Made by a program: the position numbers and the translations under genes
Shown: positions 22,185 to 46,481 of the stretch, one piece after another
How the letters are laid out: every line of letters starts with the position of its first letter
How positions within the stretch are numbered: position 1 is the stretch's first letter
Notes under the pieces: generated by a model
Databases searched by the model: none
Seen by the model: the letters and a program-made list of their open reading frames with translations, nothing else
Told to the model about the DNA's origin: nothing
IMG/VR virus record: IMGVR_UViG_3300021962_000059
Length of the DNA: 64,000 nucleotides
Direction: 5' to 3' (one strand)
From: a virus

Positions 22185-23824
22185 TAGGGATTCTCCGTGT
22201 AATCTATCCGAAAACTGATATTAATTAGTCCTGTGATCGAACTAAAGCTAATTCTTAATCTTCCGCCCGCACTAAGAATATTATTAGCAGTGGCTAATTG
22301 ATCAGCTAATACCGTAGTGGTACAATTCAAACTATTGAGTCCCGATATATTAGTCGTATCATTTTGAATAGAAATTACGGCACTCCCACTACTCAGGGAG
22401 TTGATTAGTCCAGAAACTTTATTGATTGTTACTCCTACGGGAAAAGGAGGTAAAGTCAATGTTTTCGGAAAAGATGCTCCTTCAAGCCTTGGATCATTCG
22501 CAATAAGTGCAAAAATAGTAATCGGCCAAGAATCTTCGCTGCTTCCCCCGCCACCAGTTGGTAAATTCTTGATAGCAGAAGCATCTAATCGATCACCGCC
22601 AGTCAAGGTGGCGAGAGAATCTCTGATTTGAGAAGCTGATAAAACAGGTAAATTAGTTAGTTGACTTCCATCTACTGCGGGTAATTTAGCGGTATTGTCC
22701 AGTCGAATTAGATTGTTAGCTTCGACTCCAATGGGTATTTCAGTGATAGTTCCATTGCCATTGGTGGGCTTACCTAATGCAATATTCCCGCTATTTGTCT
22801 GTTGTAGCTTGGAATAAGTGACAGATTGATTGTCGATAGTCCAAGTCGTACCAGAGTTAGAAACAGTAATATCACCCTTATCACCATCTGTAACCCCAGT
22901 TCCCCCACCCCCAGTAGGTAAATTAGTTAGTTGGCTCCCGTCTATTGCCGGTAGTTTAGCGGCACTATCTAACCTGACAATACTATTGGCAGTCGTACCA
23001 GTTTCTACTGTCCAAGTTGTACCAGAGTTACTAACGGCTACATCACCTTTATCACCATCAGTAACACCAGTAATATTAAGATCATTAAGCTGTTTTTGAA
23101 GTTTACCAAAACCCTGTAAAACGTTGTCAGTAGTGGTTATTGCGCCACCAGTAGTTGTTGACAGTCCAGTTAATACAGTTGTTAAAACATTTGCGGACGG
23201 ATTGATATTATTAATCTGATTTTGAATCTTACCTAACGAAATTAGCAGCGTATCAGTAGCAGTTATCGCACCTCCAGTAGATGTACTTAAAGCTGTCAAT
23301 GGAGTTGATAAAACTTTTGAGAAGAACCCAAAAAACCCTTTAACTCCTGATTCTTTTCCATAGAAAGTATCGTTATTAGGATTCCCTGCGATTTCATCAG
23401 CTTTGGCTACTATTCCCGCAGCACTTCCCCCGTATTCAGCAACAAGCATATCCCCCGCGCCTGTTACTGTCTGCCAGTTTGTACCATTAAAAAATAAATT
23501 ATCACCAGAAACAAGGGAGACTTTTATCCCTAGAAAAGGTAGCCAAAATCCCCAATCGCCATTAGGCTGCCCATTTAGCCCAATCAAAGGAAAGGCTATT
23601 TGATTAGTCTTTCCTTCCCATGCTCCGGTGGCTCCCGTGGGAACAATATAATAGCTATCTGGTGTTAATCCAGAAGTTGGGGGAGTTGTCACGATTCGAC
23701 TAATTACTGGCACGGAAGCCACCGATGTTAATCGAATCAGTTCGTTTACAAGCTGTTCTTTATACTCCTGAGATGGGTTAAGCATAAAGCCGTTATTGCC
23801 TAATATTTTCCCAGTCATCTCCAA
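22184..23824 (-). CDS. Tail fibre protein with internal repeats
   Basis: 546 aa. Duplicated modules: TGVTDGDKGD(V/I)xVSNSGTTWT, LDxxAKLPA(I/V)DGSQLTNLP (twice, plus LDASAIKNLPTGGGG), and LSTxTGGAITxTD..L...GK(I/L)Q.Q(I/L)N. Confidence 0.7.
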   Translation of the reverse strand: MEMTGKILGNNGFMLNPSQEYKEQLVNELIRLTSVASVPVISRIVTTPPTSGLTPDSYYIVPTGATGAWEGKTNQIAFPLIGLNGQPNGDWGFWLPFLGIKVSLVSGDNLFFNGTNWQTVTGAGDMLVAEYGGSAAGIVAKADEIAGNPNNDTFYGKESGVKGFFGFFSKVLSTPLTALSTSTGGAITATDTLLISLGKIQNQINNINPSANVLTTVLTGLSTTTGGAITTTDNVLQGFGKLQKQLNDLNITGVTDGDKGDVAVSNSGTTWTVETGTTANSIVRLDSAAKLPAIDGSQLTNLPTGGGGTGVTDGDKGDITVSNSGTTWTIDNQSVTYSKLQQTNSGNIALGKPTNGNGTITEIPIGVEANNLIRLDNTAKLPAVDGSQLTNLPVLSASQIRDSLATLTGGDRLDASAIKNLPTGGGGSSEDSWPITIFALIANDPRLEGASFPKTLTLPPFPVGVTINKVSGLINSLSSGSAVISIQNDTTNISGLNSLNCTTTVLADQLATANNILSAGGRLRISFSSITGLINISFRIDYTENP

Positions 23825-25616
23825 ACTCCTCTATCATCTTGGCTTTTACCCAGTTATTATTTTCAATTTTACAAAGACTTTTCAAGTAAGTTTCATAACG
23901 ATTTAAGTCTTCTTTATTATAGTCTTTTTTGAAAATTGCGTGAAGTCTCCACGACTTAGGCGGCATCCAGTCCTTGCTTAATTTAGGATTTTTGAATGTT
24001 TTGATCATCCATCCCCGGACACTGTCAATATGCTCACCTTTTTTATAAGCTTCTTTGAGAGCGTATTTATAGGCTAGGTATAATTCTCTATCTCTATCGT
24101 GAATTATGATTTCTAATCTTTCGTTGGCTATTTGTTTCTTTTCTTTTGTTGGAAATTCGTAACCACAGTGAGGGCAAATACGAGCGGAAGCATAAGTGAT
24201 TTTACCGCAATTTTCGCACTCTTTAATCGGAGCCTGTCCTTTTTGAGTATCGGAAGATGTAGAAAGCTTGGGATAGTCCACATCTTCGATAAATCCGTGT
24301 TCCGTCACGTTCCCCGCTTGATCTAATACCAAACAGTCAATTTTATCTAGCCAGCTACAGAGTCTTTGACCCCGACCAGTCATTTGAATATAAAGAGTCC
24401 GGCTTTTAGTCGGTCTGGCATGGATAATACAAGAAATTGCAGGTAAGTTAAATCCGATCCCGCAAGTGTTAATATTTACAATTCCCCGCAATCTTAATTC
24501 AGCTACTTTTCTGAATATTTCTCTTCTTTCCTGTTCTGGTGTTTCAGCCGTGATAATAGCCGTGGGAACACCCCTTTTATTAAATTCTGTACAGAGGCTT
24601 TTTGCGTGTTCTACACCCGCAGCGAAGCAAACAAATTGTCTCCCTTGACCGAGCCTACGATACTCGGAAACCGTTGATTTTACCGCTTCTAGGCAACGAA
24701 TTTCTAGCTGACTAACATCAAAATCACCGCCATTGATTTTTACTCCTTTAGTATTGATTTTATTTTTAGTACCAAAATAAACACAACCAACAAGCGCACC
24801 CTGTTCAATCATTTCTTTGGGAGTAGGACCAGTTACCTGAACCTCAAAAATATCTCCTAACTCCTCTCTTTTTGACAAACGCCACGGAGTTGCTGTTAGA
24901 CCAATTACGAGACGATTATCTACTGGTAGGGTTTTTCCCGAAAAAAGATGCTGTTGCTTACGAATCACTTCCCATGCTGAGTTTATCTCTTGTAAAGTTT
25001 CCTTTGATTCAGCGTGAATTAGGCTAAGATGTTTGTATTTTTCCTTAGCTTCATCAAAAGTGATTTTGTAGGGTTCTAAGTCTTCTCTTTCTACGGCAAT
25101 CCCTAATACTGCTAATTCATCACGAATATCTTTAATTGAGGTTGTTTGTTTACCATTTTTAAGATTTGGGAAGTTATCTTTAAACCACTGACAATAAGCT
25201 GATAAATGCACTTCATCAGCTAGTATTACTTCGGGATTGAACCAACTCAAGTCGCGCCCTCTAGACAAGGTTTGCGTTGTTGCAATTTGAACTAACTGAC
25301 TTCTATCTTCTTTATAACCACCAGCAATTACTCCGGCAGTTAATCCAAATTTTGCTAATGTTTCTAGAGTCTGTTCTATGAGTACCGTAAAGGGTACTAC
25401 AATTAAAGTCCGTCGCTGTCTTTTTACTGCGGCATCATAGATTATTTGACAGAAAAATACTGTTTTTCCCCATCCGCAAGGGGCAACTACTAAGGCTCTT
25501 TTATGGATTTTTAGAGCATCATACAGTTCTCTTTTAAGAGCTTTTTGGTCGTCTCTTAATTGAATTTGTGGTTTAGTCGGTACGAAAAGTGTTTGTGTTT
25601 GTAGTGTTAGTGTCAT
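23793..25616 (-). CDS. SF2 (DEAD/DEAH-like) helicase with C-terminal zinc ribbon
   Basis: 607 aa. Walker A VAPCGWGKT, motif II LADEVH, motif VI QMTGRGQRL, and CENCG...CPHCG. Confidence 0.8.
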   Translation of the reverse strand: MTLTLQTQTLFVPTKPQIQLRDDQKALKRELYDALKIHKRALVVAPCGWGKTVFFCQIIYDAAVKRQRRTLIVVPFTVLIEQTLETLAKFGLTAGVIAGGYKEDRSQLVQIATTQTLSRGRDLSWFNPEVILADEVHLSAYCQWFKDNFPNLKNGKQTTSIKDIRDELAVLGIAVEREDLEPYKITFDEAKEKYKHLSLIHAESKETLQEINSAWEVIRKQQHLFSGKTLPVDNRLVIGLTATPWRLSKREELGDIFEVQVTGPTPKEMIEQGALVGCVYFGTKNKINTKGVKINGGDFDVSQLEIRCLEAVKSTVSEYRRLGQGRQFVCFAAGVEHAKSLCTEFNKRGVPTAIITAETPEQERREIFRKVAELRLRGIVNINTCGIGFNLPAISCIIHARPTKSRTLYIQMTGRGQRLCSWLDKIDCLVLDQAGNVTEHGFIEDVDYPKLSTSSDTQKGQAPIKECENCGKITYASARICPHCGYEFPTKEKKQIANERLEIIIHDRDRELYLAYKYALKEAYKKGEHIDSVRGWMIKTFKNPKLSKDWMPPKSWRLHAIFKKDYNKEDLNRYETYLKSLCKIENNNWVKAKMIEEFGDDWENIRQ

Positions 25617-25630: not shown

Positions 25631-26089
25631 TTATATTTTGGTTTCAATGAAATCTATAGTCACTCGCAATTGACTATCTTTTTTAGCTTTCCTAGACGAG
25701 TCTATTTTGGGCTGCATCTCATTTTCAATAAAATCTGAGATAGGTTTCATTATTTTTTTTGCTTCTGCGAGTAAAGTATCTAAGTTTTTACCGTCTCCTT
25801 GTATTTTTTTTCTGTTTGATTTTATCTCAACCCAACTAAAGCAAGGAATCCGATCAGGTTCTAAAGCGAAACATTCTACTGTAACTATTAATTTTTTAGA
25901 ATATTTATTTTGAAACTCAATCCACATCTTGCATTCATATTGCCCTAGACATTGACAAAACATACGCAGTGTTCCTTGTAGATAGGAGAATCCGTCTTCT
26001 GTTTTTATTTGCCATTCCGAGCAATTAGACTGACTAAAAGTTTCTTTACAGAAAACTTCAATTTGTTTTAATGCTTCTGTTTTGTTCAT
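25631..26089 (-). CDS. Paralog family 1 (PF1) member, divergent subfamily C
   Basis: 152 aa. N-terminal helix ALKQIEVFCKETF, then ...FSWVEIKSN..., and C-terminal helix IMKPISDFIENEMQ. Confidence 0.6.
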   Translation of the reverse strand: MNKTEALKQIEVFCKETFSQSNCSEWQIKTEDGFSYLQGTLRMFCQCLGQYECKMWIEFQNKYSKKLIVTVECFALEPDRIPCFSWVEIKSNRKKIQGDGKNLDTLLAEAKKIMKPISDFIENEMQPKIDSSRKAKKDSQLRVTIDFIETKI

Positions 26090-26093
26090 TGTT

Positions 26094-26576
26094 TTAACAG
26101 GTAATCGTTTTGATGAAATTTGATATAGCCTCTACTATTTCGTCTGTTTTATCACAGATAAAATCAATCTCATTTTGTTTATCAGGGTTCTCAACGTCAC
26201 TGTAAAGTGATTCATGGTAACTAAACCCTATATATTTATATATTTCTTTTATTTGCCCTGTTCTTAAGTCAAATATTCTACTTTTCACTTTGACTGCTGG
26301 TAAATCATCAGAATCTCGGTAATGACACATGACTTTAATATGGGCTATTGTTTGCTTGTCTAAAAGAACCTTAGCATTACCTATTAAGTGAATTTGTTCA
26401 TCAAATTTTAATTGCCATTCCGACCAAAGAAGGCTTTTAAACGCCCAACTGTTCCAGTCGGAATTGTTGTTATATTCTTTGTAACAAAAAGCCGCAATCT
26501 TTTGTAGTATTCTTGCTTTTCTCGAGCGCTCCATAGCTTCTAGTTTTTTAAAAAACTCTTCTGCTGTTATTGTCAT
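26094..26576 (-). CDS. PF1 member, divergent subfamily C
   Basis: 160 aa. ILQKIAAFCYKEY...W...W, with C-terminal EIVEAISNFIKTI. 4-nt overlap with the next gene. Confidence 0.55.
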   Translation of the reverse strand: MTITAEEFFKKLEAMERSRKARILQKIAAFCYKEYNNNSDWNSWAFKSLLWSEWQLKFDEQIHLIGNAKVLLDKQTIAHIKVMCHYRDSDDLPAVKVKSRIFDLRTGQIKEIYKYIGFSYHESLYSDVENPDKQNEIDFICDKTDEIVEAISNFIKTITC

Positions 26577-26950
26577 AGTGTCACCTCGGTTTGTATTTCA
26601 TTTTTGATAAACTGAAAAATATCAATCATAATCTGTGTTCCTTTTTTACGCCATAGATTTAATTCTTCATGTTTAGCGGTTCCACTTTTCTTGAATGAGA
26701 TTTTACTGTTTTTTCTGTCATTTATCCATACAAGAAAACTTCCTTCCCAATCTAAATTAGAAATAGTAGATCGACCTTCTATATAATTTCTAAAATCATT
26801 AGTAAACTTTATATCTATCCATATAGACTTAGGGCGATACCCGTAAATCATGTCTTGAGTTCTGCTTAAAGACGTAAATGACCACTTTAGCTCTGGGTAA
26901 GTTTTTTGGCAGAAATTGAATATTTTTGTGGTTACTTCTGTTATATTCAT
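26573..26950 (-). CDS. PF1 member, subfamily A
   Basis: 125 aa. MNITEVTTKIFNFCQKTYPELKW ... LDWEGSFLVWIN ... GTQIMIDIFQFIKNEIQTEVTL. ATGA overlaps on both sides. Confidence 0.7.
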   Translation of the reverse strand: MNITEVTTKIFNFCQKTYPELKWSFTSLSRTQDMIYGYRPKSIWIDIKFTNDFRNYIEGRSTISNLDWEGSFLVWINDRKNSKISFKKSGTAKHEELNLWRKKGTQIMIDIFQFIKNEIQTEVTL

Positions 26951-27327
26951 AGTGTCACCTGAGATTGTATTTCAATTTCGATAAAGTCAAAAATGCTTGA
27001 CAGTATTTCTTTGGCTTTTACAAATAAATCTGTTGACGTATCAAATTCTTTTTTTGATTTAAAAGAAAATTGAGTTCCTGTTCTGTCTAACCAAATCTTG
27101 AAAGAACCAGTCCATATTTCTGTACTAGAAATAAATGCACTTATATCTCCTAATACAACGTGACTTTCTAATCGCGTCCCGATAATCTCTATGCCTATAT
27201 CAATTCCAGTTGTTTCACCCCAAATACGGGAAGTTAAATCTGTGTAATTTATCTGTTCCCAATTTATTTCTGAGTAACGGTCTTTGCAAAAATTGAATAT
27301 TTTTTGAGTTGTTTCTGTTATATTCAT
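26947..27327 (-). CDS. PF1 member, subfamily A
   Basis: 126 aa. MNITETTQKIFNFCKDRYSEINW ... WTGSFKIWLD ... ILSSIFDFIEIEIQSQVTL. Confidence 0.7.
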   Translation of the reverse strand: MNITETTQKIFNFCKDRYSEINWEQINYTDLTSRIWGETTGIDIGIEIIGTRLESHVVLGDISAFISSTEIWTGSFKIWLDRTGTQFSFKSKKEFDTSTDLFVKAKEILSSIFDFIEIEIQSQVTL

Positions 27328-27743
27328 AGTGTCACCTCGGATTGTATTTCATGTTCAATAAATGAAAGAATGTCAATCATAATCTGTGTCCCTTTTTCAC
27401 ACCATAAGTTTAGTTCTTCATGCTGACATATTCCATCTCCTTTAAACAAAATTTCATTATTTTTTTCTTGGTTTACCCATGCCGTAAAAACTCCTTCCCA
27501 TGCTAAACGATCTATAGTGCAATAACCTTTTATTAAGCCAACTTGCAAATTACTCGGATCGTGACTAATAATGTCTATGTATATTTTTATAGTAAGTATT
27601 CCTAGTCTAGTAAAAAAAGCTTTACATCCATAAATACACGGTTCCCCATTTCGTCCAGTCCAACTATCATCATCCCATCTTAAATCGGGATGATTTTTCT
27701 GACAAAAATCTAATATTTTTGTGGTTACTTCTGTTATGTTCAT
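27324..27743 (-). CDS. PF1 member, subfamily A
   Basis: 139 aa. MNITEVTTKILDFCQKNHPDLRW ... LAWEGVFTAWVN ... GTQIMIDILSFIEHEIQSEVTL. Confidence 0.7.
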   Translation of the reverse strand: MNITEVTTKILDFCQKNHPDLRWDDDSWTGRNGEPCIYGCKAFFTRLGILTIKIYIDIISHDPSNLQVGLIKGYCTIDRLAWEGVFTAWVNQEKNNEILFKGDGICQHEELNLWCEKGTQIMIDILSFIEHEIQSEVTL

Positions 27744-28165
27744 AGTGTCACCTCGGTTTGTATTTCATTTTTGATAAACTCAAAAATATCAATCATAATC
27801 TGTGTCCCTTTTTCACACCATAGATTTAACTCTTCGTGTTTAGCGGTTCCACTTTTCTTGAATGAGATTTGACTGTTTTTTCTGTCATTTATCCATACAA
27901 GAAAACTTCCTTCCCAATCTAAATTAGAAATAGTAGATCGACCTTCTATATAATTTCTAAAATCGCTAGGTGAACCGTCACTGCTATAAGAGTTGTTACT
28001 ATTGACCCTTATATCTATTTGTATTCCATTTATAGAATTAAGAATAGGGCGATACCCGTAAATCATGTCTTGAGTTCTGTCTAAAGACGTAAATGACCAC
28101 TTTAGCTCTGGGTAAGTTTTTTGGCAGAAACCTAATATTTTTTGGGCTGTTTCTTGTTTGTTCAT
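27740..28165 (-). CDS. PF1 member, subfamily A (mosaic of 26573..26950 with a different central segment)
   Basis: The start is taken at MNKQETAQKILGFCQKTYPELKW (28165), 4 nt after the upstream stop. Its N-terminal ~25 aa and C-terminal ~70 aa are nearly identical to 26573..26950, but the central loop differs (ILNSINGIQIDIRVNSNNSYSSDGSPS vs KSIWIDIKFTN). Confidence 0.7.
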   Translation of the reverse strand: MNKQETAQKILGFCQKTYPELKWSFTSLDRTQDMIYGYRPILNSINGIQIDIRVNSNNSYSSDGSPSDFRNYIEGRSTISNLDWEGSFLVWINDRKNSQISFKKSGTAKHEELNLWCEKGTQIMIDIFEFIKNEIQTEVTL

Positions 28166-28169
28166 AATT

Positions 28170-28649
28170 TTAACTTTTAACCTCAACTATTTTGCAAAAC
28201 CTTAAAATAGTCTCCATTATCTTTATTGCCTCTGGAACCAAAATATTGAACTCTTCTTTGTTTCCGCTTGGATAAAGATTATATCTTGAGTTGCAGTCTG
28301 GTGTTTCGTTATAACCGTATATCCAACTTAAGGCAACCAAAGACCCGCCTAACGTACCTTCTATTGTGATTTTTTCAAGGCATTTGTCTACTAATTGATA
28401 TTCAGTCGAAATTTCTCGACATTCAATCAAAACTTCATACTTTTTACATTTTATTAACTTACCATAAGTTTTGTAAAGATAATCCTCTTTAATTATCAAA
28501 GTTCCTATTAAACGAATACATTTATCGTCTGCAACTGTATCCCATTCTGAGATGTCCACTGTATCGTATTCGGAGATGGTCATCTGCTCAAAAGTTTTTT
28601 TAAAGAAATCTCTGATTTCTTTAAGTGACTTTTCTTTTAATACTTCCAT
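28170..28649 (-). CDS. PF1 member, divergent subfamily C
   Basis: 159 aa. SLKEIRDFFKKTFEQ ... ALSWIYGYN ... PEAIKIMETILRFCKIVE. Confidence 0.55.
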   Translation of the reverse strand: MEVLKEKSLKEIRDFFKKTFEQMTISEYDTVDISEWDTVADDKCIRLIGTLIIKEDYLYKTYGKLIKCKKYEVLIECREISTEYQLVDKCLEKITIEGTLGGSLVALSWIYGYNETPDCNSRYNLYPSGNKEEFNILVPEAIKIMETILRFCKIVEVKS

Positions 28650-28659
28650 TGTTTTTACC

Positions 28660-28992
28660 TCAAATACAAATAACTAGATCACCGACACAAACATTGATAA
28701 ATTTCTCACAATCGTATCGAGAATTATTACAAGCTTGAATAATAGAAGTATTTTCCTCAATAGAAATAACCATCCCTGATCCCTTATAAAGGATACGATG
28801 ACCAATAAAGTCTCTAGTTATTGGGTCGTATATTGGGTTGTTTGTAATTGAATAAACCAGATGAGAGTCATTTATTCTCATACGATTTAATTCGCCACGG
28901 TTTATTACTACTTTAAAATCATCGATAACTTCAATTACCTTAGCTGGATACGTTCCTTTAGTCGGAAGTCCTAGCTCCTCGTCTGTTGTCAT
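28660..28992 (-). CDS. Hypothetical protein unrelated to PF1, embedded in the array
   Basis: 110 aa, beta-rich sequence, no PF1 terminal helices. Confidence 0.5.
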   Translation of the reverse strand: MTTDEELGLPTKGTYPAKVIEVIDDFKVVINRGELNRMRINDSHLVYSITNNPIYDPITRDFIGHRILYKGSGMVISIEENTSIIQACNNSRYDCEKFINVCVGDLVICI

Positions 28993-28996
28993 TGTT

Positions 28997-29113
28997 TTAA
29001 GTGCCTGTAGCCTCAGTTGTTTTAATAAAGCCTAAAATAGTCTCCATTATCTTTGTCGCTTCTGGAATTAAGATATTTAAGATTTCGTTGTCCCCCTCAC
29101 TTTTTGGCTCTTT
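28997..29113 (-). pseudogene. Truncated PF1 remnant (C-terminal ~35 codons only)
   Basis: It translates to ...DNEILNILIPEATKIMETILGFIKTTEATGT*, compared with the C-terminus of 28170..28649 (EEFNILVPEAIKIMETILRFCKIVEVKS). The DNA block aaaatagtctccattatcttt is shared (28201.. and 29033..). It keeps the upstream hairpin and SD but has no start codon. Confidence 0.6.
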
Positions 29114-29142
29114 TTTAATCTGTTACTCCTATTGGGTGAAAT

Positions 29143-29167
29143 TACTAGACAGATATTTTGTCTAGTA
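29143..29167 (-). promoter_or_regulatory. Conserved intercistronic hairpin (copy 1)
   Basis: TACTAGACA-loop-TGTCTAGTA immediately after the stop of 29174..29536, followed by CACCCAATAGGAGTAA (SD). Confidence 0.5.
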
Positions 29168-29173
29168 GTGTTT

Positions 29174-29536
29174 TCATTCTTGAATCTCATCAAGAATGAA
29201 AGTGAAGATGTCTAGCATTACTTTTCGGGTTTCTCTGTATTTGTTGTCAAAATAATCGCATTTTGACTTTCTAATATAATCAAAGAATATTTTATTTTCA
29301 TAAGAACGGTTATTGTCTCTATCGTCAGGGTTTATCCATAATTCAAATGTGCCTACATAATACGCTTCACATAAAACACGCTTAAGCAAGCCATCCAGAA
29401 AAACCTCTATTATTAATTCATCAGGAAAAAGTGGACACTGAATTATATTATTTTCAGGGTCAAGATTCCATCTTAAATTTGGATAACTTCTGTGACAGAA
29501 TTCCAATATTTTCTCTGTTATTTGTTTTATGTCCAT
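29174..29536 (-). CDS. PF1 member, subfamily B
   Basis: 120 aa. MDIKQITEKILEFCHRSYPNLRW ... VGTFELWIN ... VMLDIFTFILDEIQE. Confidence 0.7.
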   Translation of the reverse strand: MDIKQITEKILEFCHRSYPNLRWNLDPENNIIQCPLFPDELIIEVFLDGLLKRVLCEAYYVGTFELWINPDDRDNNRSYENKIFFDYIRKSKCDYFDNKYRETRKVMLDIFTFILDEIQE

Positions 29537-29551
29537 TGGTGTTGCTCCTAT

Positions 29552-29962
29552 TTATTCTTGAATTTCGTTAGCAATAAAATTGAAAATACCTAGCATCACT
29601 TCTCGATATTTTTTGTACAAGTCCCAGTCTTTTTTATCCCACTCTTTTGTTATTGGGAGACTACGAAAATCTATTTTTTTGTCACAATTTAGATGAATAC
29701 CAAACATCCCCAACCAACCTACATTAACTAGGTCAAAGTGTCCGATTATATAATCATCGGTAGTTTCTTCTTTATAAGAAGAAACATCATTTCTTTTGTC
29801 TGAGCAAATTTTTAGAGTTACTTTAAACAGAGAATCTACTCCACAAATTACAGTTTTATTTGTACATTCACTATTTAATTTATCTACATTCCACTCTAAA
29901 TCTGGGTATTGATTTAAGCAATAACCTGATATTTTGTAAGCTATTAGTTGTATCTCCATCAC
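29552..29962 (-). CDS. PF1 member, subfamily B
   Basis: 136 aa. IAYKISGYCLNQYPDLEW ... VGWLGMFGIHLN ... VMLGIFNFIANEIQE. Confidence 0.65.
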   Translation of the reverse strand: MMEIQLIAYKISGYCLNQYPDLEWNVDKLNSECTNKTVICGVDSLFKVTLKICSDKRNDVSSYKEETTDDYIIGHFDLVNVGWLGMFGIHLNCDKKIDFRSLPITKEWDKKDWDLYKKYREVMLGIFNFIANEIQE

Positions 29963-29974
29963 TGTTACTCCTGT

Positions 29975-30403
29975 CTATTCTTGAATTTCATCTTCAATAA
30001 AATTAAAGATTTCTCTCACCATTTTTCTGGCTTTTTTTACTAAAAGCCAGCTATCATCATTCCAATCGTCATGAGTAGCAAGCATAAGCTCTAATTCGCT
30101 GTCTTTGTTATGGTTTAACTTAACCTCAAAACTACCCGACCAGAAAAGTAGAGATTTTTCTTCTGATTGAGGTATTAGAAGCGACCCCAATATATAATCG
30201 TAAGTAGCTTCTTTTTCGTAAAACTCTTGTTTTTCATCTGAGCAAATTTCTAGCTCTAATTTAAATAAAGAGCAAGAGCCAAGAATAAGTGCGACAACGT
30301 TATAGTTATTTTTATGGCTGTCAAAATAGTTACAGTTCCAGCCTAAATCTGAATAACTTTGGCAGAAATTAAATAATTTTTCTGTCACTTGTTTTGTATC
30401 CAT
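29975..30403 (-). CDS. PF1 member, subfamily B
   Basis: 142 aa. MDTKQVTEKLFNFCQSYSDLGW ... FWSGSFEVKLN ... MVREIFNFIEDEIQE. Confidence 0.7.
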   Translation of the reverse strand: MDTKQVTEKLFNFCQSYSDLGWNCNYFDSHKNNYNVVALILGSCSLFKLELEICSDEKQEFYEKEATYDYILGSLLIPQSEEKSLLFWSGSFEVKLNHNKDSELELMLATHDDWNDDSWLLVKKARKMVREIFNFIEDEIQE

Positions 30404-30428
30404 TGATTTTACTCCTATTAGGTGAACT

Positions 30429-30453
30429 TACTAGACAGATATTCTGTCTAGTA
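30429..30453 (-). promoter_or_regulatory. Conserved intercistronic hairpin (copy 2)
   Basis: A 10-bp stem TACTAGACAG / CTGTCTAGTA right after the stop of 30460..30858, followed by CACCTAATAGGAGTAAAATCA-ATG. Confidence 0.5.
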
Positions 30454-30459
30454 TTGTTT

Positions 30460-30858
30460 TTACTCTTGAATCTCATTAAGGATGAAATTGAAAATGTCTA
30501 GCATTACTTTTCGGCATTGACTAGCTAATTTCCAATGTTCTGCACTCCATAGTTCATGTTTATAATAGGCAAGATTCTCAAAAACTATATAGTCTTCATA
30601 CCGATAGCTCATGTCTTCGATGGGAGGATTTATCCAAATTTTAAACTTTCCTATTTGGTTATCTTGCCACTCAACACACTTGAGTTGTCCGTCTAATCCC
30701 GACCAAATACCGTATTTAATCTTTATGCTGTCATCAGAAAAAGTTAAGCATTGAATGATTTTATAGTCATTATCTGTAAAATCAAAATTCCAGTCTAAAT
30801 CTGGGTATTTTTCTTCACAGAAATTTAGTATCTTTTCTGCTATTTGTTGTGTGTCCAT
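30460..30858 (-). CDS. PF1 member, subfamily B
   Basis: 132 aa. MDTQQIAEKILNFCEEKYPDLDW ... IGKFKIWIN ... VMLDIFNFILNEIQE. Confidence 0.7.
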   Translation of the reverse strand: MDTQQIAEKILNFCEEKYPDLDWNFDFTDNDYKIIQCLTFSDDSIKIKYGIWSGLDGQLKCVEWQDNQIGKFKIWINPPIEDMSYRYEDYIVFENLAYYKHELWSAEHWKLASQCRKVMLDIFNFILNEIQE

Positions 30859-31767: not shown

Positions 31768-31967
31768 GAAATTTCTTGAAAATCTTCTTTTCTAAAACAG
31801 TAAAATTGTTCTCCTTTTGTGAGGTGATCGATTGATTCAAAATGGTAGTAGATTCCTATGGCAGTCTTAATAATTCCCAGTGGTTTGCACTGAGGAAAAA
31901 TACGACCATAGGAATTGACACGATAAACTTTTTCAGGGTATCGAGAGGGAATATATTGTCCAATCAT
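31764..31967 (-). CDS. Hypothetical small protein
   Basis: The start is taken at MIGQYIPSRY (ATG 31967). The longer track ORF (to 31997) would overlap the tRNA-like T arm. Confidence 0.35.
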   Translation of the reverse strand: MIGQYIPSRYPEKVYRVNSYGRIFPQCKPLGIIKTAIGIYYHFESIDHLTKGEQFYCFRKEDFQEIS

Positions 31968-31968
31968 A

Positions 31969-32170
31969 GGTACTAGAGACGGGAATTGAACCCGCAAAAC
32001 TTAATTAAATCTACTCCTGACGAAACGCCCTTCCCTTACTCAATCTTTGCCAAGTTCGGTGGATTCGCAAATTTCAGTTTTGAAACAAAAAATAAAGGTA
32101 TTTTTTGTATTAAGTCCCTTTTCGGTTGAAGGCTCCGTTTCACAGCCTTTAGCTACCAAGCTACTCTAGC
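31969..32170 (-). ncRNA. tRNA-like structured RNA (~200 nt) with acceptor stem and T arm but a ~130-nt internal expansion
   Basis: The 5' GCTAGAG (32170..32164) pairs with CTCTAGT (31978..31972). A canonical T arm GCGGG-TTCAATT-CCCGT precedes it and A-CC follows. There is a D-like hairpin AGCT-TGGT-AGCT and a 6-bp hairpin AAGGCT/AGCCTT with a 9-nt loop. A 10-bp hairpin ACAAAAAATA/TATTTTTTGT is also present. The 5' G coincides with the +1 predicted from the promoter at 32177..32205. Confidence 0.5.
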
Positions 32171-32176
32171 ACTTCA

Positions 32177-32205
32177 ATCCTATCAGAGGCTTCTGAAATT
32201 GTCAA
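32177..32205 (-). promoter_or_regulatory. Sigma70-type promoter TTGACA-N17-TAGGAT driving the tRNA-like RNA
   Basis: The minus strand reads GGATTGACA ATTTCAGAAGCCTCTGA TAGGAT TGAAGT G(+1)CTAGAG. Confidence 0.65.
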
Positions 32206-32210
32206 TCCTA

Positions 32211-35096
32211 TCAGGTACTTATATCCTGTAGATAACAGTTAGAAAATGGAATTGTAAAAGCGATCACAGACCCATTTAAGATAGTTTCTACCCTCAAAAG
32301 CCATTGATTGTCAAAAGTCACTTCGATAACTTTTCCGACTGCTCTTGGTGGGATAGTTCGCTCTCCTATCTCTATAGATGCACCCGTTCGCACTAATACC
32401 CTTTCTTTTTCAAGATCAGGAAGACTATCAATGTGTACACCATCAGCCGAGAACTCATCGACTGGCTCCGATTCAACTTCTACTATCTCAGGGTTAGAGA
32501 TCGGTTCATTTTTTGGAGTAGGAGTGGGAATCTGGACAATTTCCTCTTTTATTTCTGATTGATATTCCAGAGATTCGGGTTCTTCTATCTCAAAAGCTTC
32601 TAATTCTTTTGGCTCTTGATAGCGCAGTATCATGCCCCTTGATTTGACCTCTAATCGTCCATAGCCAGCTTGTTCTAACTGAGTAAGTAGGGTGCGGGCA
32701 ATAGAGGTGTTTACTTTTTCCCCGTTAATTTTACGCCCGCCGAATTTTTGGGCAACTTCCCGGGGTTTAATCTGTCCTGCGCTTTTGACAATCTCCCATA
32801 TCTCGGATAAGATTCCCTGTACCGGATTCTCATCCTGAGAAGTAACCCCTTGAATTGTCAAGAATTGACTGATATAGAAGTCAGTCATCTTAGCAGCTTT
32901 TTTAGCTGTTTGTACTGGTATTTTATAGAGGTCGGTATTATCTGGATCAAATATCCAGTTCAATAGATGGATTGCCAGAGTAAGCCTTAAGAAAGTCTTC
33001 ATCTGTTTCCCTATATAAGAAGCAAATGATGGATTAATCGCCCGATACTTTTTGATAAGCATCTCGTAATGATACTTAATACCGAAGGCATAATCCTCTC
33101 CAGTTTCGGTAAACCAACAATTATAAGGATCGACGATTCCATCTTCATCAGCTTCTAGATTAATCCCGCTGATTTGATTGATAATATTTTGGATGCACTC
33201 TTGAATCGAGTTAGGGTCTTCTGGCGGTCTCCCACGTTGAGGATCGAGGGGTTCATGCAATAGGAAAAGAAACCGAGAAACCAATCCATCTACATCATTA
33301 GATAGGTCTAAGTATTTTTGTACTTTCTGTATCTGTATCCCACCTAATATATTGATAGTTTGCCCATTCAGGAAATAGCGATTTTCCTCTTTTACCCTAT
33401 CAAAAGTATTTTGTACTGGATCATTCCAAGATGATAATAATCGTTGCCGGTCATTACCTTTACCGCCCGACCGGTATTGATTTAAGCCTTCAAATAATCC
33501 CGTTAACTCATCCGCTACCCACACCCCACCTTGCCAACGAGGTTGAGTGGACATCGTTTTCAGGACACCATCGAAAGTTCCTTCGTCATAAAACCAGCGA
33601 CGGGATTGACAGTTTTCTTTTTCGTAAAGACTAGGATTTACTTCAGCGTTTTCTTTGTGTATGCTACGCTCTTCGCGGGTCATTTCTGCCCATTCTGCTT
33701 TTAATTCTTTTAGCCTAGCTTGCTTTTTAGAGAGCCTTTCTAACTCATCTAAGTCCTTTCTTTTTAATACCTTGTAAATTTCTTTTTGAGTAGTAGTTTT
33801 CCCACTACTTACACCACCAGCATCAGCACAATAAAAAATCGGGTATTCTTTCCAGCACTCCCTTTCCCTTGCAGTAGTTCGGAGGTTAACTGCAAATCGA
33901 CTACCTAAGATAGCCCCTAATATTGGCCATAGGGAGTGTAGCAATCGGATTGGGGGCTGGTTAAGTGTTCTGGCGCGGGATATGATTGCCTCAGCTAAAG
34001 GTTGGGGTAATATTTGAAAAAGATCAATCTCTTTTTTCTGATAATGCTTACCCCTTAAAAAACCCTCTAATCCTGTTTTAATAGCGTCCCCTTCCGCTAT
34101 TTCTGTTTTACGAATTTCGATTAAATGCCGTATTTCTGTTGGCTTTTTACCAGTGGCTTTTGCCCATAAATCGACTTTTTCTTGCCATTGGGTTCTAGTG
34201 ATTTCCTCTTGTCCAATACAGCCGTCAATGGCTGTTATTAAGTCTTGGAAAGTCATAGTTTCTGTTACTGTGACTTCCTTCTCTTTTTTCTCCTTTACTT
34301 CTTTTGGTTTGTCAACTATCGAGGCTAATAGTTCTTTAAGATCAATTTTCTTTTCCTCAATCCAGTTGATGATATCTACCCCCTGAGAATCTGGCAAGTG
34401 ATTCCATATAAGAGAGTCTGGATAGGCATAAAGCCATTTTGCTTCTGGGAAATCTTGATAAATTTTCTGGCAGTGAGCTACTCCCCCTTTGTCACGGTCC
34501 GGGCATAAAACTAATTTTGCTCCCTTTAAAGCTTCTGTGTGAGACGGTTGCCATTTCTTTGATCCGCCTATATTGCAAGTGGCAACTAATCCAAAAGATT
34601 CAAGCTTTTCTACTTTAGTCTCACCCTCGACTATATAAATCGGAGTTCCTTCCTTGATAGCCTTTTCTAGGCGATCTGCGTGGTAAAGAGGTATATTTTT
34701 GTACTCAATATCACCTATGCCCCACTTCCAGTTTTTACCATTATCTGTAGAGTGCTGTTGTTTTATATCCTTTTTCCAAATACCATCTTCTTTGTAATCC
34801 TTCCGGTACACACGGACTCTCACCCCATTGGCAAGAGGGGGATAAAGGAAGTATTGGGTTTTTTCTTCTTTATAGGCAGAAAATTTGACTTCTTTTTTAA
34901 GATAGTAGAGCGGTGTACCCTCACTATCTACTTTGCTCGATTTTTCCCATCCTGGTGCGGGGTCATAGTTTCGTTTGCAGACTGAGATGGTATTGCCGTC
35001 ATCGGCTACATACATATAGCACCAATCGGGCTTGCCACAGTGGGGGCAAGGATTGTTTTTGTCGATCTTGACACGGTTAGAGTTTTGTGTTACCAT
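32211..35096 (-). CDS. DNA primase / helicase (Zn-binding N-terminus + Toprim + P-loop NTPase domain)
   Basis: 961 aa. CPHCGKPDWC...VCKR, Toprim motifs IYIVEGETKVEKL and LCPDRDKGG, and Walker A DAGGVSSGKTT. Confidence 0.8.
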   Translation of the reverse strand: MVTQNSNRVKIDKNNPCPHCGKPDWCYMYVADDGNTISVCKRNYDPAPGWEKSSKVDSEGTPLYYLKKEVKFSAYKEEKTQYFLYPPLANGVRVRVYRKDYKEDGIWKKDIKQQHSTDNGKNWKWGIGDIEYKNIPLYHADRLEKAIKEGTPIYIVEGETKVEKLESFGLVATCNIGGSKKWQPSHTEALKGAKLVLCPDRDKGGVAHCQKIYQDFPEAKWLYAYPDSLIWNHLPDSQGVDIINWIEEKKIDLKELLASIVDKPKEVKEKKEKEVTVTETMTFQDLITAIDGCIGQEEITRTQWQEKVDLWAKATGKKPTEIRHLIEIRKTEIAEGDAIKTGLEGFLRGKHYQKKEIDLFQILPQPLAEAIISRARTLNQPPIRLLHSLWPILGAILGSRFAVNLRTTARERECWKEYPIFYCADAGGVSSGKTTTQKEIYKVLKRKDLDELERLSKKQARLKELKAEWAEMTREERSIHKENAEVNPSLYEKENCQSRRWFYDEGTFDGVLKTMSTQPRWQGGVWVADELTGLFEGLNQYRSGGKGNDRQRLLSSWNDPVQNTFDRVKEENRYFLNGQTINILGGIQIQKVQKYLDLSNDVDGLVSRFLFLLHEPLDPQRGRPPEDPNSIQECIQNIINQISGINLEADEDGIVDPYNCWFTETGEDYAFGIKYHYEMLIKKYRAINPSFASYIGKQMKTFLRLTLAIHLLNWIFDPDNTDLYKIPVQTAKKAAKMTDFYISQFLTIQGVTSQDENPVQGILSEIWEIVKSAGQIKPREVAQKFGGRKINGEKVNTSIARTLLTQLEQAGYGRLEVKSRGMILRYQEPKELEAFEIEEPESLEYQSEIKEEIVQIPTPTPKNEPISNPEIVEVESEPVDEFSADGVHIDSLPDLEKERVLVRTGASIEIGERTIPPRAVGKVIEVTFDNQWLLRVETILNGSVIAFTIPFSNCYLQDIST
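35068..35096 (+). promoter_or_regulatory. Possible + strand promoter TTGACA-N17-TACCAT, antisense to the primase start
   Basis: The -10 overlaps the primase ATG (35094..35096). A + oriented terminator follows ~35 nt downstream. Confidence 0.3.
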
Positions 35097-38363: not shown

Positions 38364-38783
38364 TTACTCCTTAGATGTGTTTGGTTTGTAAGGCCAACTG
38401 TGATATGTTCCGTATATTTCTTTGTAGTCACCCTCGACTACAAAGTTAGAGGCTATTGCTATAGAAAGCATAAACAAGTTAGCATCTGTCTTTAATTGTT
38501 TAGGAATAAAAACATCTGTCTTGCAAAAAGCAAGAAATAACCACACCCAAAATGTTATTTTCTTTGTAATAGATTGATTCCAATCGTAATTATCAAGAAG
38601 AAGACAATCCATTATATTGCCTTTGATTGCGGATTTATAAAACAGTTCTAAATAGTCTAATTTAGGATTCTGCTTCACTTCTAATACTAAAGCGTCAACG
38701 TATTGTTTAGCTTCGATAGGCAGTCTATCGTATTGTTTCCGAACTAGCATTGCGCGTCGAATGTCCATTTGTTGAATGTCCAT
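38364..38783 (-). CDS. Paralog family 2 (PF2) member
   Basis: 139 aa. EAKQYVDALVLEVKQNP ... FWVWLFLAFCKTDVFIPKQLKTDANLFMLSIAIASNFVVEGDY. Confidence 0.6.
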   Translation of the reverse strand: MDIQQMDIRRAMLVRKQYDRLPIEAKQYVDALVLEVKQNPKLDYLELFYKSAIKGNIMDCLLLDNYDWNQSITKKITFWVWLFLAFCKTDVFIPKQLKTDANLFMLSIAIASNFVVEGDYKEIYGTYHSWPYKPNTSKE

Positions 38784-38825
38784 TGGGTTACTCCTGTTTT
38801 AGATTATTTTTAGTTGTTTCTTGCT

Positions 38826-39224: not shown

Positions 39225-39235
39225 TGTTTTACTCC

Positions 39236-42559: not shown

Positions 42560-42988
42560 ATGACTAATCTGCAATTTAAACTAGCTCAGCTAAATAAAAC
42601 TAAGCTTTTCTGCAAAGACCTTTATCCAGGTGATTGGTGGATTAATACAAGCCATGAACGGGAATCTTTTGGCGTTCAGATATTAATCGGAAATGTTAAA
42701 GATCATGATCATTCTTTTCAAGTATTTATCGATAGCGATTTTAATGTTAGCATTGAAGGCTCTTTACTATATCACGGGTGTGATGCTTGGGTTGAAATTA
42801 GTTCAAACGAACAAGAAATAGGATTTGAGATAGAGACTATCATCGAAGATGATAACTATTTAGAAAAACTACGAAAAGATTTAACCAACTTGATTCCTAA
42901 AATTAATGAAATGGTAGATGTCATTTCAGAATTTACCGAACAATTCAGCAGGAAAAATTTAGATGAAAAAAGTACCTGTTATTCCTGA
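42560..42988 (+). CDS. Distant PF1-like protein on the + strand
   Basis: 142 aa with the same layout as PF1: LNKTKLFCKDLYPGDWW ... DAWVEISSNEQEIGFE (compare FSWVEIKSNRKKIQGD in 25631..26089) ... INEMVDVISEFTEQF. Confidence 0.5.
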   Translation: MTNLQFKLAQLNKTKLFCKDLYPGDWWINTSHERESFGVQILIGNVKDHDHSFQVFIDSDFNVSIEGSLLYHGCDAWVEISSNEQEIGFEIETIIEDDNYLEKLRKDLTNLIPKINEMVDVISEFTEQFSRKNLDEKSTCYS

Positions 42989-46466: not shown

Positions 46467-46481
46467 TATGTTTTATTTTAG

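What the first reader, a model, noticed from the sequence alone, without database searches (positions are those of the whole stretch)
25631..30858. 5.2-kb tandem array of 11 paralogous small genes (PF1) with mosaic members, plus one distant + strand copy
**Seen directly:**
- Eleven adjacent minus-strand ORFs of 120-160 aa share one architecture.
- The N-terminal helix reads M(N/D)I(T/K).(V/I)T.KI(F/L).FC...YP.L.W.
- A variable beta-rich centre ends in W.G.F..W(I/L)N.
- The C-terminal helix reads (V/I)M(I/L)DIF.FI..EIQ.
- Subfamily A has 4 genes ending in EVTL. They are joined by ATGA stop/start overlaps within a homogenised junction, CATAGTGTCACCTCGG.
- Subfamily B has 4 genes ending in EIQE. 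Two of them are followed by a conserved hairpin plus an SD.
- Subfamily C has 3 divergent genes. A distant relative lies on the + strand at 42560..42988.
- 26573..26950 and 27740..28165 are nearly identical at both ends but carry different central segments (KSIWIDIKFTN versus ILNSINGIQIDIRVNSNNSYSSDGSPS). This is a cassette-like pattern pointing to recent recombination or gene conversion with diversification of an exposed loop.

**Interpretation (inference):** I recognise no known domain. The array lies in the early operon between the primase and helicase genes. That placement fits host-takeover, anti-defence or superinfection-exclusion functions, but this is speculation.
Basis: partly seen in the sequence, partly recalled or inferred. 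Interest (0 to 1): 0.8.

Follow-up and report, generated by a model that had tools for sequence, protein, structure and literature searches.

The report
Variable paralog gene array in Microcystis phage
An uncultured ~91-kb Microcystis phage carries eleven tandem copies of a small protein family known only from Microcystis phages; the family has a conserved two-helix scaffold and a variable beta-sheet face, the array changes in copy number between related phages and has moved between unrelated ones, so it is a good but untested candidate for a set of host-binding or anti-defence proteins.

Summary
Window 25631-30858 holds 12 co-directional minus-strand ORFs, and 11 of them belong to one superfamily. 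A and B genes match each other at BLASTP E 1e-5 to 1e-73. Profile-profile tests link A/B to C1/C3 (97.7%, E 1.7e-12) and C1/C3 to C2 (94.3%). ORF 28660-28992 is unrelated, and 29001-29122 holds a remnant of a deleted C-type gene. The plus-strand copy at 42560-42988 is a probable distant member.

AlphaFold gives helix, six antiparallel strands, long helix (pLDDT 88). Nothing matched convincingly in PDB, Pfam, NCBIfam, PHROGs or PADLOC. Apart from a few spurious short-motif hits, homologs occur only in Microcystis-phage sequences: 25 clusters among 1.84 billion representatives.

In 32 related contigs the island between the primase-helicase-like gene and an SF2 helicase spans 2.1-6.7 kb and 3-12 genes. 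Arrays also occur in two other contexts in unrelated Fukuivirus myophages, at 82-89% protein identity.

Ortholog dN/dS is 0.27-0.51, against 0.08-0.13 for the flanking genes. A1 and A4 have homogenised flanks around distinct, older central cassettes.

Function is inferred, not shown: non-enzymatic binders aimed at polymorphic host, probably defence, targets. I rate it a new family of a known kind.

The parts
30460..30858 (-). B4, family member (132 aa), first gene of the array
   Evidence: Orthologs at 62-86% identity occur in many loci.
30429..30453 (-). Conserved hairpin after B4, followed by a conserved SD box upstream of B3
   Evidence: RNA fold -15.2 kcal/mol, z -3.7. No Rfam match.
29975..30403 (-). 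B3, family member (142 aa)
29552..29962 (-). B2, family member. The ORF tool gives a GTG start at 29962; the ATG at 29959 gives 135 aa, the length of P0012, which matches B2 at 100% identity.
29174..29536 (-). B1, family member (120 aa)
   Evidence: The DNA is 88.7% identical to MaMV-CH02 gene 150L.
29141..29169 (-). Second copy of the conserved hairpin, after B1, followed by an orphaned SD box
   Evidence: RNA fold -12.4 kcal/mol, z -2.8. It lies within a 106-nt repeat that is 91% identical to the region after B4 (D5).
29001..29122 (-). Remnant of a deleted C-type member: about the last 40 codons (IKKEPKSEGDNEILNILIPEATKIMETILGFIKTTEATGT*)
   Evidence: Translation. Repeat D7 is 76% identical to the 3' end of C3. 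Intact 135/165-aa C-type genes occupy this position in other loci.
28660..28992 (-). X, an unrelated orphan gene (110 aa) embedded in the array and conserved at this position
   Evidence: hhalign below 1% against all family profiles. Present in 46 loci. Only close orthologs exist. dN/dS 0.22.
28170..28649 (-). C3, divergent family member (159 aa)
   Evidence: Linked to C1 through 135/164-aa intermediates. hhalign A/B against C1/C3 97.7%.
27740..28165 (-). A4, family member (141 aa) with the long central cassette; this is the protein modelled
   Evidence: AF2 pLDDT 88.2, pTM 0.83, helix-six strands-helix..
27324..27743 (-). A3, family member (139 aa); ATGA overlap with A4
26947..27327 (-). A2, family member (126 aa); ATGA overlap with A3
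26573..26950 (-). A1, mosaic family member (125 aa): the 5' 40 nt are A3-like, the flanks are A4-like, and the short central cassette is its own
26094..26576 (-). C2, divergent family member (160 aa); ATGA overlap with A1
   Evidence: hhalign C1/C3 against C2 94.3%, E 1e-7, 118 columns.
25631..26089 (-). C1, divergent family member (152 aa), last gene of the array
   Evidence: HMM E 2e-4. hhalign 97.7%.
42560..42988 (+). D, a probable distant family member (142 aa) outside the array
23793..25616 (-). Downstream flank: SF2 DNA helicase
   Evidence: Pfam ResIII, Helicase_C and DEAD; PHROG 16.
32211..35096 (-). Upstream flank: primase/helicase-like protein (DUF3987)

Best explanation
**Shown**
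- The locus is a tandem array of paralogous genes for small soluble proteins with one fold. An N-terminal helix and the last half of a long C-terminal helix pack on one face of a six-stranded antiparallel sheet.
- The helices and the inward-facing strand residues are conserved. The outward-facing strand residues and two loops vary and carry the indels.
- No polar residue is invariant across the superfamily.
- The genes are tightly packed. In subfamily A the stop and start codons overlap, and the ribosome-binding site lies inside the conserved ...EVTL tail of the preceding gene.
- The array is a hot spot of gain, loss, deletion and gene conversion inside an otherwise syntenic replication module. 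It has also moved between unrelated Microcystis phages.

**Inferred**
- The proteins are non-enzymatic binders. The conserved helical layer is the scaffold, or a handle for a common partner. The variable open face of the sheet is the recognition surface.
- Each paralog neutralises a different variant of a polymorphic host protein during infection. The most plausible targets are components of the unusually large Microcystis defence and toxin arsenal.
- Copy number expands and contracts under that arms race, in the manner of a 'gene accordion', and useful members spread horizontally among phages that share the host.
For: **One superfamily**
-.

**Fold and conservation pattern**
- The A4 model is confident: pLDDT 88.2.
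- Mean entropy is 0.9-1.3 bits in helix 1, the turn and the last half of helix 2, and 1.7-2.5 bits in the sheet and loops. Loops 41-46 and 56-71 have 50% occupancy.
- Strand 5 alternates: W84, G86, F88 and V90 are conserved, while E85, S87 and L89 are variable.
- Across all members only M1 and I111 are invariant, and W23 and F114 nearly so. That gives no catalytic signature.

**Real genes, evolving faster than their neighbours**
- dN/dS is 0.27-0.51, against 0.08 for the helicase and 0.13 for the primase-like gene.
- In B1 and B4 the central region has dN/dS 0.73-0.78, against 0.07-0.22 in the C-terminal helix.

**Flux in the array**
- 32 loci (31 related contigs plus the window) have both flanking genes. 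The island there spans 2.1-6.7 kb and 3-12 genes.
- Composition differs between loci while gene order is kept.
- A deleted member has left a remnant.
- Flanks of A1 and A4 are homogenised within this genome: 3.6% differences between these paralogs, against 8.6-11.2% to their own orthologs (p = 0.017 and 3e-4).

**Horizontal spread**
- C3 and B1 DNA is 88.7% identical to MaMV-CH02.
- A Fukuivirus contig that is 97.6% identical to MaMV-DL01 carries a 7-gene array beside a SelO gene.
- The window otherwise shares only small patches with Fukuivirus genomes. Its helicase is at most 28% identical to anything in the cultured-phage collection.

**Phage-restricted**
-.

**Host background**
- Microcystis aeruginosa has remarkably abundant and diverse antiviral defence genes (abstract of PMC5780444).
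Against: - There is no experimental or homology-based link to any defence system or host protein.
- No expression data exist.
- No region reaches dN/dS above 1. The A4, B3, C1, C2 and C3 ortholog sets show no clear contrast between centre and helices.
- Recombination between paralogs inflates and distorts the dN/dS estimates.
- The conserved ends could reflect nucleotide-level constraints (ribosome-binding sites, recombination substrates) rather than a protein interface.
- Net charge varies widely, with pI 4.5-9.4, so there is no uniform mimicry mechanism.
- The structural argument rests on one predicted model, and I had no access to its coordinates.
Confidence: 0.4

Rival explanations
1. The proteins are accessory factors of phage replication or host takeover. 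They would modulate the neighbouring primase/helicase, the host replisome or RNA polymerase rather than defence systems, and the paralogs would be specialised for different host strains.
For: The position between the primase-like gene and the helicase is fixed, on the same strand, in 32 loci. Tight packing suggests co-transcription with the replication genes.
Against: In Fukuivirus genomes the arrays sit in two other contexts, away from replication genes. Copy number of 1-11 is hard to reconcile with a stoichiometric replisome role. The conserved partner that such a role predicts does not fit the variable sheet face.
Confidence: 0.2
2. The proteins act in superinfection exclusion or competition between phages. 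Paralogs would bind and block proteins of rival Microcystis phages that co-infect the same cells.
For: The family is shared by co-occurring, unrelated Microcystis phage lineages and is exchanged between them. It diversifies quickly.
Against: There is no membrane or signal sequence of the kind common in exclusion proteins: all members are soluble, with GRAVY -0.1 to -0.6. Sharing the same genes with the supposed rivals would blunt exclusion.
Confidence: 0.12
3. The proteins are virion-associated, for example ejected internal proteins, decoration proteins or tail-fibre chaperones. Their diversity would track host surface or entry barriers.
For: Tail-fibre-like (DUF2793) and baseplate genes follow the helicase. 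In the Fukuivirus contig L003 the array lies near DUF4815 and DUF5907 genes.
Against: Within the island there is no structural-gene neighbour. No PHROG structural family matches; the best is a tail family at E 0.077 for one member. The array is separated from the tail genes by the helicase.
Confidence: 0.08
4. The array is a nearly neutral or selfish expansion. The duplications would persist through recombination-prone junctions without contributing to phage fitness.
For: The junctions are repetitive. Loss and truncation are frequent.
Against: All ortholog sets are under purifying selection, with dN/dS 0.27-0.51. ORFs stay intact across dozens of contigs. Gene order is retained, and the genes have been acquired repeatedly by other phage lineages.
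Confidence: 0.05

Closest known systems
Gene 'accordion' expansions of host-antagonist genes in large DNA viruses (e.g. poxvirus K3L amplification), from my own knowledge
   Same: Tandem copy-number expansion and contraction of a small viral gene. Near-identical recent copies (A1 and A4) sit beside old, diverged ones. Recombination occurs at repeated junctions.
   Different: Here the copies are long-diverged paralogs kept in a fixed order across many genomes, not transient amplifications. The target and the antagonist role are unproven.
Poly-immunity arrays of SUKH (SMI1/KNR4) and other Imm proteins in polymorphic toxin systems, from my own knowledge
   Same: Tandem arrays of small, non-enzymatic alpha+beta paralogs with a conserved scaffold and a diversified surface, each thought to neutralise a different protein variant.
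   Different: No sequence match to any Pfam SUKH or Imm family. No Foldseek match. No adjacent toxin gene. The family is found only in phages.
Phage anti-defence gene islands and hyperplastic regions (anti-CRISPR loci, T4-like plasticity regions), from my own knowledge
   Same: Small orphan genes in a variable island within a conserved module. They turn over rapidly and are exchanged between phages of one host.
   Different: Those islands usually hold unrelated genes. Here one superfamily supplies 11 of the 12 genes. No known anti-defence protein is matched.
Helix-grip / START / Bet v 1-like (SRPBCC) fold
   Same: An antiparallel sheet is covered by a long C-terminal helix. These were the best PDB Foldseek hits (6cay, 3tfz, 2d4r; probability 0.7-0.97).
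   Different: TM-scores are only 0.35-0.43, E is at least 7.7e-3 and rmsd about 7 A. The beta-alpha-alpha N-terminal unit is missing. There is no sequence signal.
YdhG-like / DUF1801 proteins ('iron chaperone' in PGAP annotation)
   Same: Both have an N-terminal helix ending in (Y/F)P.L followed by KW(N)..., and a later G.F.I.W(N) strand. Three YdhG-like PDB chains top the profile search.
   Different: E is only 0.1-0.4. hhalign gives 10% over 35 columns. The C-type profile and the D profile do not hit this family. No member hits Pfam DUF1801. It is absent from the top 50 Foldseek hits.

Membership tests
The array's own superfamily ('PF1'), tested for C1, C2 and C3 | Full-length profile-profile similarity to the A/B core | tested here: met
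   hhalign A/B against C1/C3: 97.7%, E 1.7e-12, 100 columns. C1/C3 against C2: 94.3%, E 1e-7, 118 columns. The control gene X scores below 1%.
The array's own superfamily ('PF1'), tested for the plus-strand gene D | Profile similarity plus the same fold | tested here: inconclusive
   hhalign 65.8% with D as a single sequence and 28.7% with a D profile, both full length against C1/C3. An AF2 model from an independent alignment has the same helix-six strands-helix order, at pLDDT 71. The second-best BFVD hit is family member A0A510E8I6 (probability 0.99, TM 0.36-0.39).
The array's own superfamily ('PF1'), tested for ORF 28660-28992 (X) | Any profile similarity to the family | tested here: not met
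   hhalign probability 0.1-0.6% against all four family profiles.
START / Bet v 1-like (SRPBCC) | Helix-grip fold match (TM at least 0.5) or a Pfam hit | tested here: not met
   Best TM 0.43, E 7.7e-3. No Pfam hit.
YdhG-like / DUF1801 | Significant sequence-profile match over the domain | tested here: not met
   PDB profile search E 0.096-0.36. hhalign 10%, N-terminal 35 columns only. The C-type profile gives no hit. Pfam DUF1801 is not hit by any of 83 members.
SUKH / Imm poly-immunity proteins | Match to a SUKH or Imm Pfam family | tested here: not met
   No such family at E up to 10 in 83 members or in the C, D and X proteins.
SUKH / Imm poly-immunity proteins | Tandem array of diversified paralogs next to a toxin gene | tested here: inconclusive
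   The tandem array is present. No toxin-like domain was found in the neighbours I scanned.
Known anti-phage defence proteins (PADLOC) | Match to a PADLOC model | tested here: not met
   Only C1 against PD-T4-2_B at E 0.0075, 14 bits over 41 residues.
Known anti-defence proteins (anti-CRISPR, anti-restriction, Tad, Acb and similar) | Homology or a shared fold with a characterised inhibitor | not testable with these tools
   No dedicated library was available. PHROGs and Foldseek against PDB returned none.
Diversity-generating retroelement target | A reverse transcriptase and a template repeat nearby | not tested
   No reverse-transcriptase domain appeared among the ORFs scanned, but not every ORF in the window was scanned. 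The repeats found are paralog-to-paralog.

The most novel reading that the evidence does not exclude
The array could be a phage-encoded repertoire of binders built on one novel scaffold. Recombination at the conserved gene ends would shuffle variable 'cassette' centres among paralogs and among co-infecting phage lineages. That would give the Microcystis phage community a shared, evolvable set of inhibitors matched to the polymorphic defence and toxin systems of their host. Functionally this is a counter-immune repertoire, not a single anti-defence gene.
Probability: 0.2. Interest if true: 0.8.

Novelty: new member of a known kind. Interest (0 to 1): 0.52.

Why it matters
Microcystis blooms are an ecological and public-health problem. 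The host carries one of the richest known sets of defence genes, yet almost nothing is known about how its phages overcome them.

This locus offers three things:
- **A defined family.** It is phage-only, has a confidently predicted fold with no convincing structural match, and has a clear conserved-scaffold, variable-face design.
- **Natural variation.** 65 related viral contigs were retrieved; in the 31 of them that keep both flanking genes the island holds 3-10 genes (12 in the window), which could be correlated with host genotypes.
- **An experimental entry point.** The cultured phage MaMV-CH02 carries three members (148L-150L).

If the members are inhibitors, they would identify which host systems matter in nature. 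They might also yield new protein inhibitors and a new scaffold. If they are not, the locus remains a clean example of concerted evolution and module exchange between unrelated phages.

Tried and rejected
- **Domain libraries.** Pfam, NCBIfam, PHROGs and PADLOC scans of all members gave nothing at or near curated thresholds.
- **Structure search.** Foldseek against PDB gave no hit at E of 1e-3 or better. The START-like, CapZ and p32 hits have TM below 0.45, so I rejected them as fold assignments.
- **YdhG/DUF1801 lead.** The lead came. I collected full-length YdhG-like sequences from plasmids and ran hhalign. It gave only 10% over 35 columns, and nothing for the C, C2 or D profiles. The C-type profile against PDB hit 14-3-3 and GFP-like proteins by chance. 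I rejected the lead.
- **Long hits in the 1.84-billion-protein search.** P0128, P0135, P0136 and P0138 are repeat proteins that appear to carry signal peptides and contain a short YPDVDW-like motif. They are spurious.
- **X as a clue to function.** X has only close orthologs and no family or PDB match, so it gave no help.
- **The neighbouring four-gene array (phrog_23556, 38364-40628).** It is unrelated to this family, below 1% by hhalign.
- **Rfam on the region.** No match.
- **Host genomes.** The genome collection gave only four loci, all in MAGs of non-host taxa and most likely mis-binned phage contigs. The first two attempts at that scan failed because the query alignments had no sufficiently conserved stretch.
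- **Literature.** Searches found no description of the family.
- **DNA mimicry.** I rejected this as a general mechanism because pI ranges from 4.5 to 9.4.

Full report
**1. What is in the sequence**

Window 25631-30858 holds twelve co-directional minus-strand ORFs. I labelled them in transcription order:
- B4 30460-30858
- B3 29975-30403
- B2 29552-29962
- B1 29174-29536
- X 28660-28992
- C3 28170-28649
- A4 27740-28165
- A3 27324-27743
- A2 26947-27327
- A1 26573-26950
- C2 26094-26576
- C1 25631-26089

The eight A and B genes are clearly homologous. Pairwise BLASTP gives E 1e-5 to 1e-73. An HMM of these genes scores each at E 1e-37 to 1e-50 against all 465 window ORFs.

The C genes look weak on their own, with HMM E of 2e-4, 0.059 and 0.67. 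I built profiles from orthologs in 65 related IMG/VR loci. With these, hhalign gives:
- A/B against C1/C3: 97.7%, E 1.7e-12, full length.
- C1/C3 against C2: 94.3%, E 1e-7.
- X against every profile: below 1%, which serves as a negative control.

So eleven genes form one superfamily, and X is an unrelated gene conserved inside the array.

The 181-nt gap between B1 and X contains the last ~40 codons of a deleted C-type gene, at 29001-29122. Intact genes occupy that position in other phages.

**2. Gene organisation**

Subfamily A genes, and A1 into C2, are joined by ATGA stop/start overlaps. The junction CATAGTGTCACCTCGG occurs 4 times against 0.02 expected. The GAGGTG that encodes the 'EV' of the ...EVTL tail sits 8 nt before the next ATG.

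The A-specific tail is therefore at least partly a translational-coupling signal. It is also disordered in the model, with pLDDT 37 for the last residues.

B genes are separated by 12-56 nt and preceded by AGGAG. After B4 and B1 there is a hairpin, TACTAGACAG-loop-CTGTCTAGTA. These are its only two occurrences in the window. Predicted folding energies are -15.2 and -12.4 kcal/mol, with z -3.7 and -2.8.

The hairpin is conserved in 31 related loci between B-type genes. Stem changes there give G.U pairs on the sense strand, and the loop occurs in both orientations. There is no U-tract on the sense strand and no Rfam match. Its role, perhaps in RNA processing or stability, is open.

**3. Mosaic A1/A4**

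| Comparison | Flanks | Centre | 5' 40 nt | Fisher p (flanks vs centre) |
|---|---|---|---|---|
| A1 vs A4 (this genome) | 11/304 differ (3.6%) | 10/34 differ (29.4%), plus 15- and 33-nt indels | 12/40 differ | 4.6e-6 |
| A1 vs its ortholog (L017) | 26/304 differ (8.6%) | 2/34 differ | 14/40 differ | 1 |
| A4 vs its ortholog (L003) | 35/312 differ (11.2%) | 2/74 differ | 3/40 differ | 0.026 |
| A1 vs A3 (this genome) | 107/304 differ (35.2%) | 16/34 differ | 4/40 differ | 0.19 |

The flanks of A1 and A4 are more alike than either is to its own ortholog (p = 0.017 and 3e-4). The two central forms are therefore old alleles, and the flanks have been homogenised within this genome.

The first 40 nt of A1 match A3 at 36/40, which indicates a separate conversion tract.

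In the B1, B4 and C3 ortholog sets, synonymous divergence is higher at the gene ends than in the centre. That pattern is what exchange of ends between paralogs would produce.

**4. Fold**

AlphaFold2 on A4 used 83 family sequences and gave pLDDT 88.2 and pTM 0.83. The elements are helix 3-17, six antiparallel strands, then helix 111-138.

Conservation maps as follows:
- Helix 1, the YP.L.W turn and residues 123-138 of helix 2 have mean entropy 0.8-1.3 bits.
- The strands and loops have 1.7-2.5 bits.
- Indels concentrate in loops 41-46 and 56-71.
- Strand 5 alternates between conserved residues (W84, G86, F88, V90) and variable ones (E85, S87, L89).

This points to a conserved core and helix side, and a variable open sheet face. 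Across all thirteen aligned sequences only M1 and I111 are invariant, so there is no catalytic signature. The proteins are soluble, and their pI ranges from 4.5 to 9.4.

**5. Is it a known family? No.**

- Pfam, NCBIfam, PHROGs and PADLOC gave nothing.
- Foldseek against PDB gave no hit at E of 1e-3 or better. The best are START/Bet v 1-like domains with TM 0.35-0.43.
- Foldseek against BFVD found only A0A510E8I6, A0A510E837, A0A510E800 and A0A510E820, which appear to be family members from one phage.
- A profile search of PDB sequences put three YdhG-like (DUF1801) chains on top at E 0.1-0.4, with an appealing motif match.
- That lead did not hold. hhalign against a small YdhG profile gave 10% over 35 columns. 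The C and D profiles gave nothing, and no member hits Pfam DUF1801.
- A full HMMER scan of 1.84 billion representatives found only 25 clusters at E of 1e-3 or better. The long ones are spurious motif repeats.
- The word-indexed search found 158 clusters. Every one of the 120 listed is an ortholog of a window paralog.
- The genome collection gave four loci, all in MAGs of non-host taxa. One contig is 86.5 kb, the size of a whole phage genome, which suggests mis-binning.

**6. Whose genome**

The window comes from a ~91-kb contig. It has no cultured close relative: the helicase is at most 28% identical to anything in the phage collection.

It shares only small patches at 85-92% nucleotide identity with Microcystis Fukuivirus phages. 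One patch covers C3 and B1, another the tRNA-Tyr region. One member is annotated in a Microcystis MAG. The host is therefore almost certainly Microcystis.

**7. Comparative genomics**

32 loci (31 related contigs plus the window) have both the primase-like gene and the helicase. The island between them spans 2,092-6,731 bp and holds 3-12 family-plus-X genes. The window has the most.

Gene order is kept (B types, then X, C3, A types, C1, C2). Individual members come and go, and truncated copies are common.

The same genes occur at 82-89% protein identity in a Fukuivirus contig that is 97.6% identical to MaMV-DL01 over 8.3 kb. There they form a seven-gene array next to a SelO-domain gene. A three-gene set occurs in MaMV-CH02 as genes 148L-150L. 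That makes three genomic contexts in two unrelated phage lineages.

**8. Selection**

Nei-Gojobori dN/dS among orthologs is 0.27-0.51 for family members and 0.22 for X. It is 0.08 for the helicase, 0.13 for the primase-like gene and 0.11-0.20 for most other neighbours.

The genes are therefore real and constrained, but they evolve three to five times faster at the protein level than the flanking replication genes. In B1 and B4 the central region has dN/dS 0.73-0.78, against 0.07-0.22 in the C-terminal helix. Other sets show no clear contrast.

Mean dS is lower in the array than in the flanks. That fits recent spread, but recombination and my 60% identity cut-off for orthologs are caveats.

**9. 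The plus-strand copy D (42560-42988)**

- D has its own orthologs, 16 clusters.
- With D as a single sequence, hhalign against C1/C3 gives 65.8% (E 5.7e-5). With a D profile it gives 28.7% (E 6e-4). Both alignments are full length and share motifs: FC..YP..W, WVEISSN against WVEIKSN, and LIP....M..IS.F.
- An AF2 model from its independent alignment has pLDDT 71 and the same helix-six strands-helix order.
- Apart from its own ortholog, its best BFVD hit is A0A510E8I6, the family member that was also the top hit for A4.

I rate D a probable distant member, at about 0.75-0.8.

**10. Interpretation**

What is shown: a phage-restricted superfamily with a fold that matches no solved structure convincingly. 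The scaffold is conserved and one face is variable. The genes sit in a recombination-prone, copy-number-variable and horizontally mobile tandem array.

What is inferred: the proteins are non-enzymatic binders of polymorphic host targets, most plausibly defence or toxin components. M. aeruginosa is noted for abundant and diverse defence genes (abstract of PMC5780444). I put this at about 0.4.

Rivals:
- Replication or takeover accessory factors (0.2).
- Competition between phages (0.12).
- Virion-associated proteins (0.08).
- Neutral or selfish expansion (0.05).

**11. Verdict**

The protein family is new, but the phenomenon is a known kind: a variable accessory multigene island. Interest is moderate, about 0.5. 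It is a well-delimited, testable candidate rather than a demonstrated new mechanism.

Noticed in passing
window 38364-40628 (minus strand): There is a second tandem paralog array. ORFs 38364-38783, 38826-39224 and 39236-39628, plus the C-terminal half of 39972-40628, all match phrog_23556 (unknown function) at E 1e-14 to 3e-51. It is unrelated to the family studied here (hhalign below 1%).
   Followed up: partly
window 28660-28992: Orphan gene X (110 aa) is embedded at a fixed position in the array in 46 related loci. Its dN/dS is 0.22, only close orthologs exist in the 5.8-billion-protein database, and it has no family or PDB match. It could be a functional partner of the array.
   Followed up: partly
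window 29141-29169 and 30429-30453; 31 related loci: Across loci the conserved hairpin between B-type genes has its 5-nt loop in both orientations (AATAT and ATATT). Its stem changes give G.U pairs only on the sense strand. On the antisense strand the hairpin followed by a T-run looks like an intrinsic terminator.
   Followed up: partly
L003 5719-10527 (also L004, L006, L010): An uncultured Fukuivirus contig, 97.6% identical to MaMV-DL01 over 8.3 kb, carries a SelO-domain (PF02696) gene directly upstream of a seven-gene array of this family. In the megablast listing this stretch was not covered by the best match to cultured Fukuivirus genomes.
   Followed up: partly
window 1912-2148, 31913-32222, 38781-39645, 46447-51724: Scattered patches share 85-92% nucleotide identity with Fukuivirus genomes (Ma-LMM01, MaMV-DC, MaMV-CH, MaMV-DL, MaMV-DH). 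One includes the tRNA-Tyr region. The two kinds of genome are otherwise unrelated, which points to frequent exchange of modules among Microcystis phages.
   Followed up: partly
L072-L074 (JBIPMW01 contigs) and L075: Array-bearing contigs, one of them 86.5 kb, are binned into a Crocinitomicaceae MAG and an 'Acidimicrobium' MAG in the genome collection. They are most likely mis-binned Microcystis-phage contigs.
   Followed up: no
P0128, P0135, P0136, P0138: These 346-684 aa repeat proteins appear to carry signal peptides. Each has 4-9 copies of a KKKYP(D/N)VDWS-like or SSYPDIKW motif and matches the family's N-terminal YP.L.W motif by chance.
   Followed up: yes
window 54216-63554: There is a 3,112-aa minus-strand ORF. 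I did not examine it.
   Followed up: no
window 618-7733 and 14723-15655: The phage encodes class I ribonucleotide reductase large and small subunits, a thymidylate-synthase-like protein with a pterin-binding DUF4346 domain, and an N6/N4 DNA methylase.
   Followed up: no
B1, B4 and C3 ortholog sets (window 29174-29536, 30460-30858, 28170-28649): Synonymous divergence among orthologs is 3-4 times higher at the gene ends, especially the C-terminal helix, than in the centre. This is what exchange of gene ends between paralogs would produce.
   Followed up: partly
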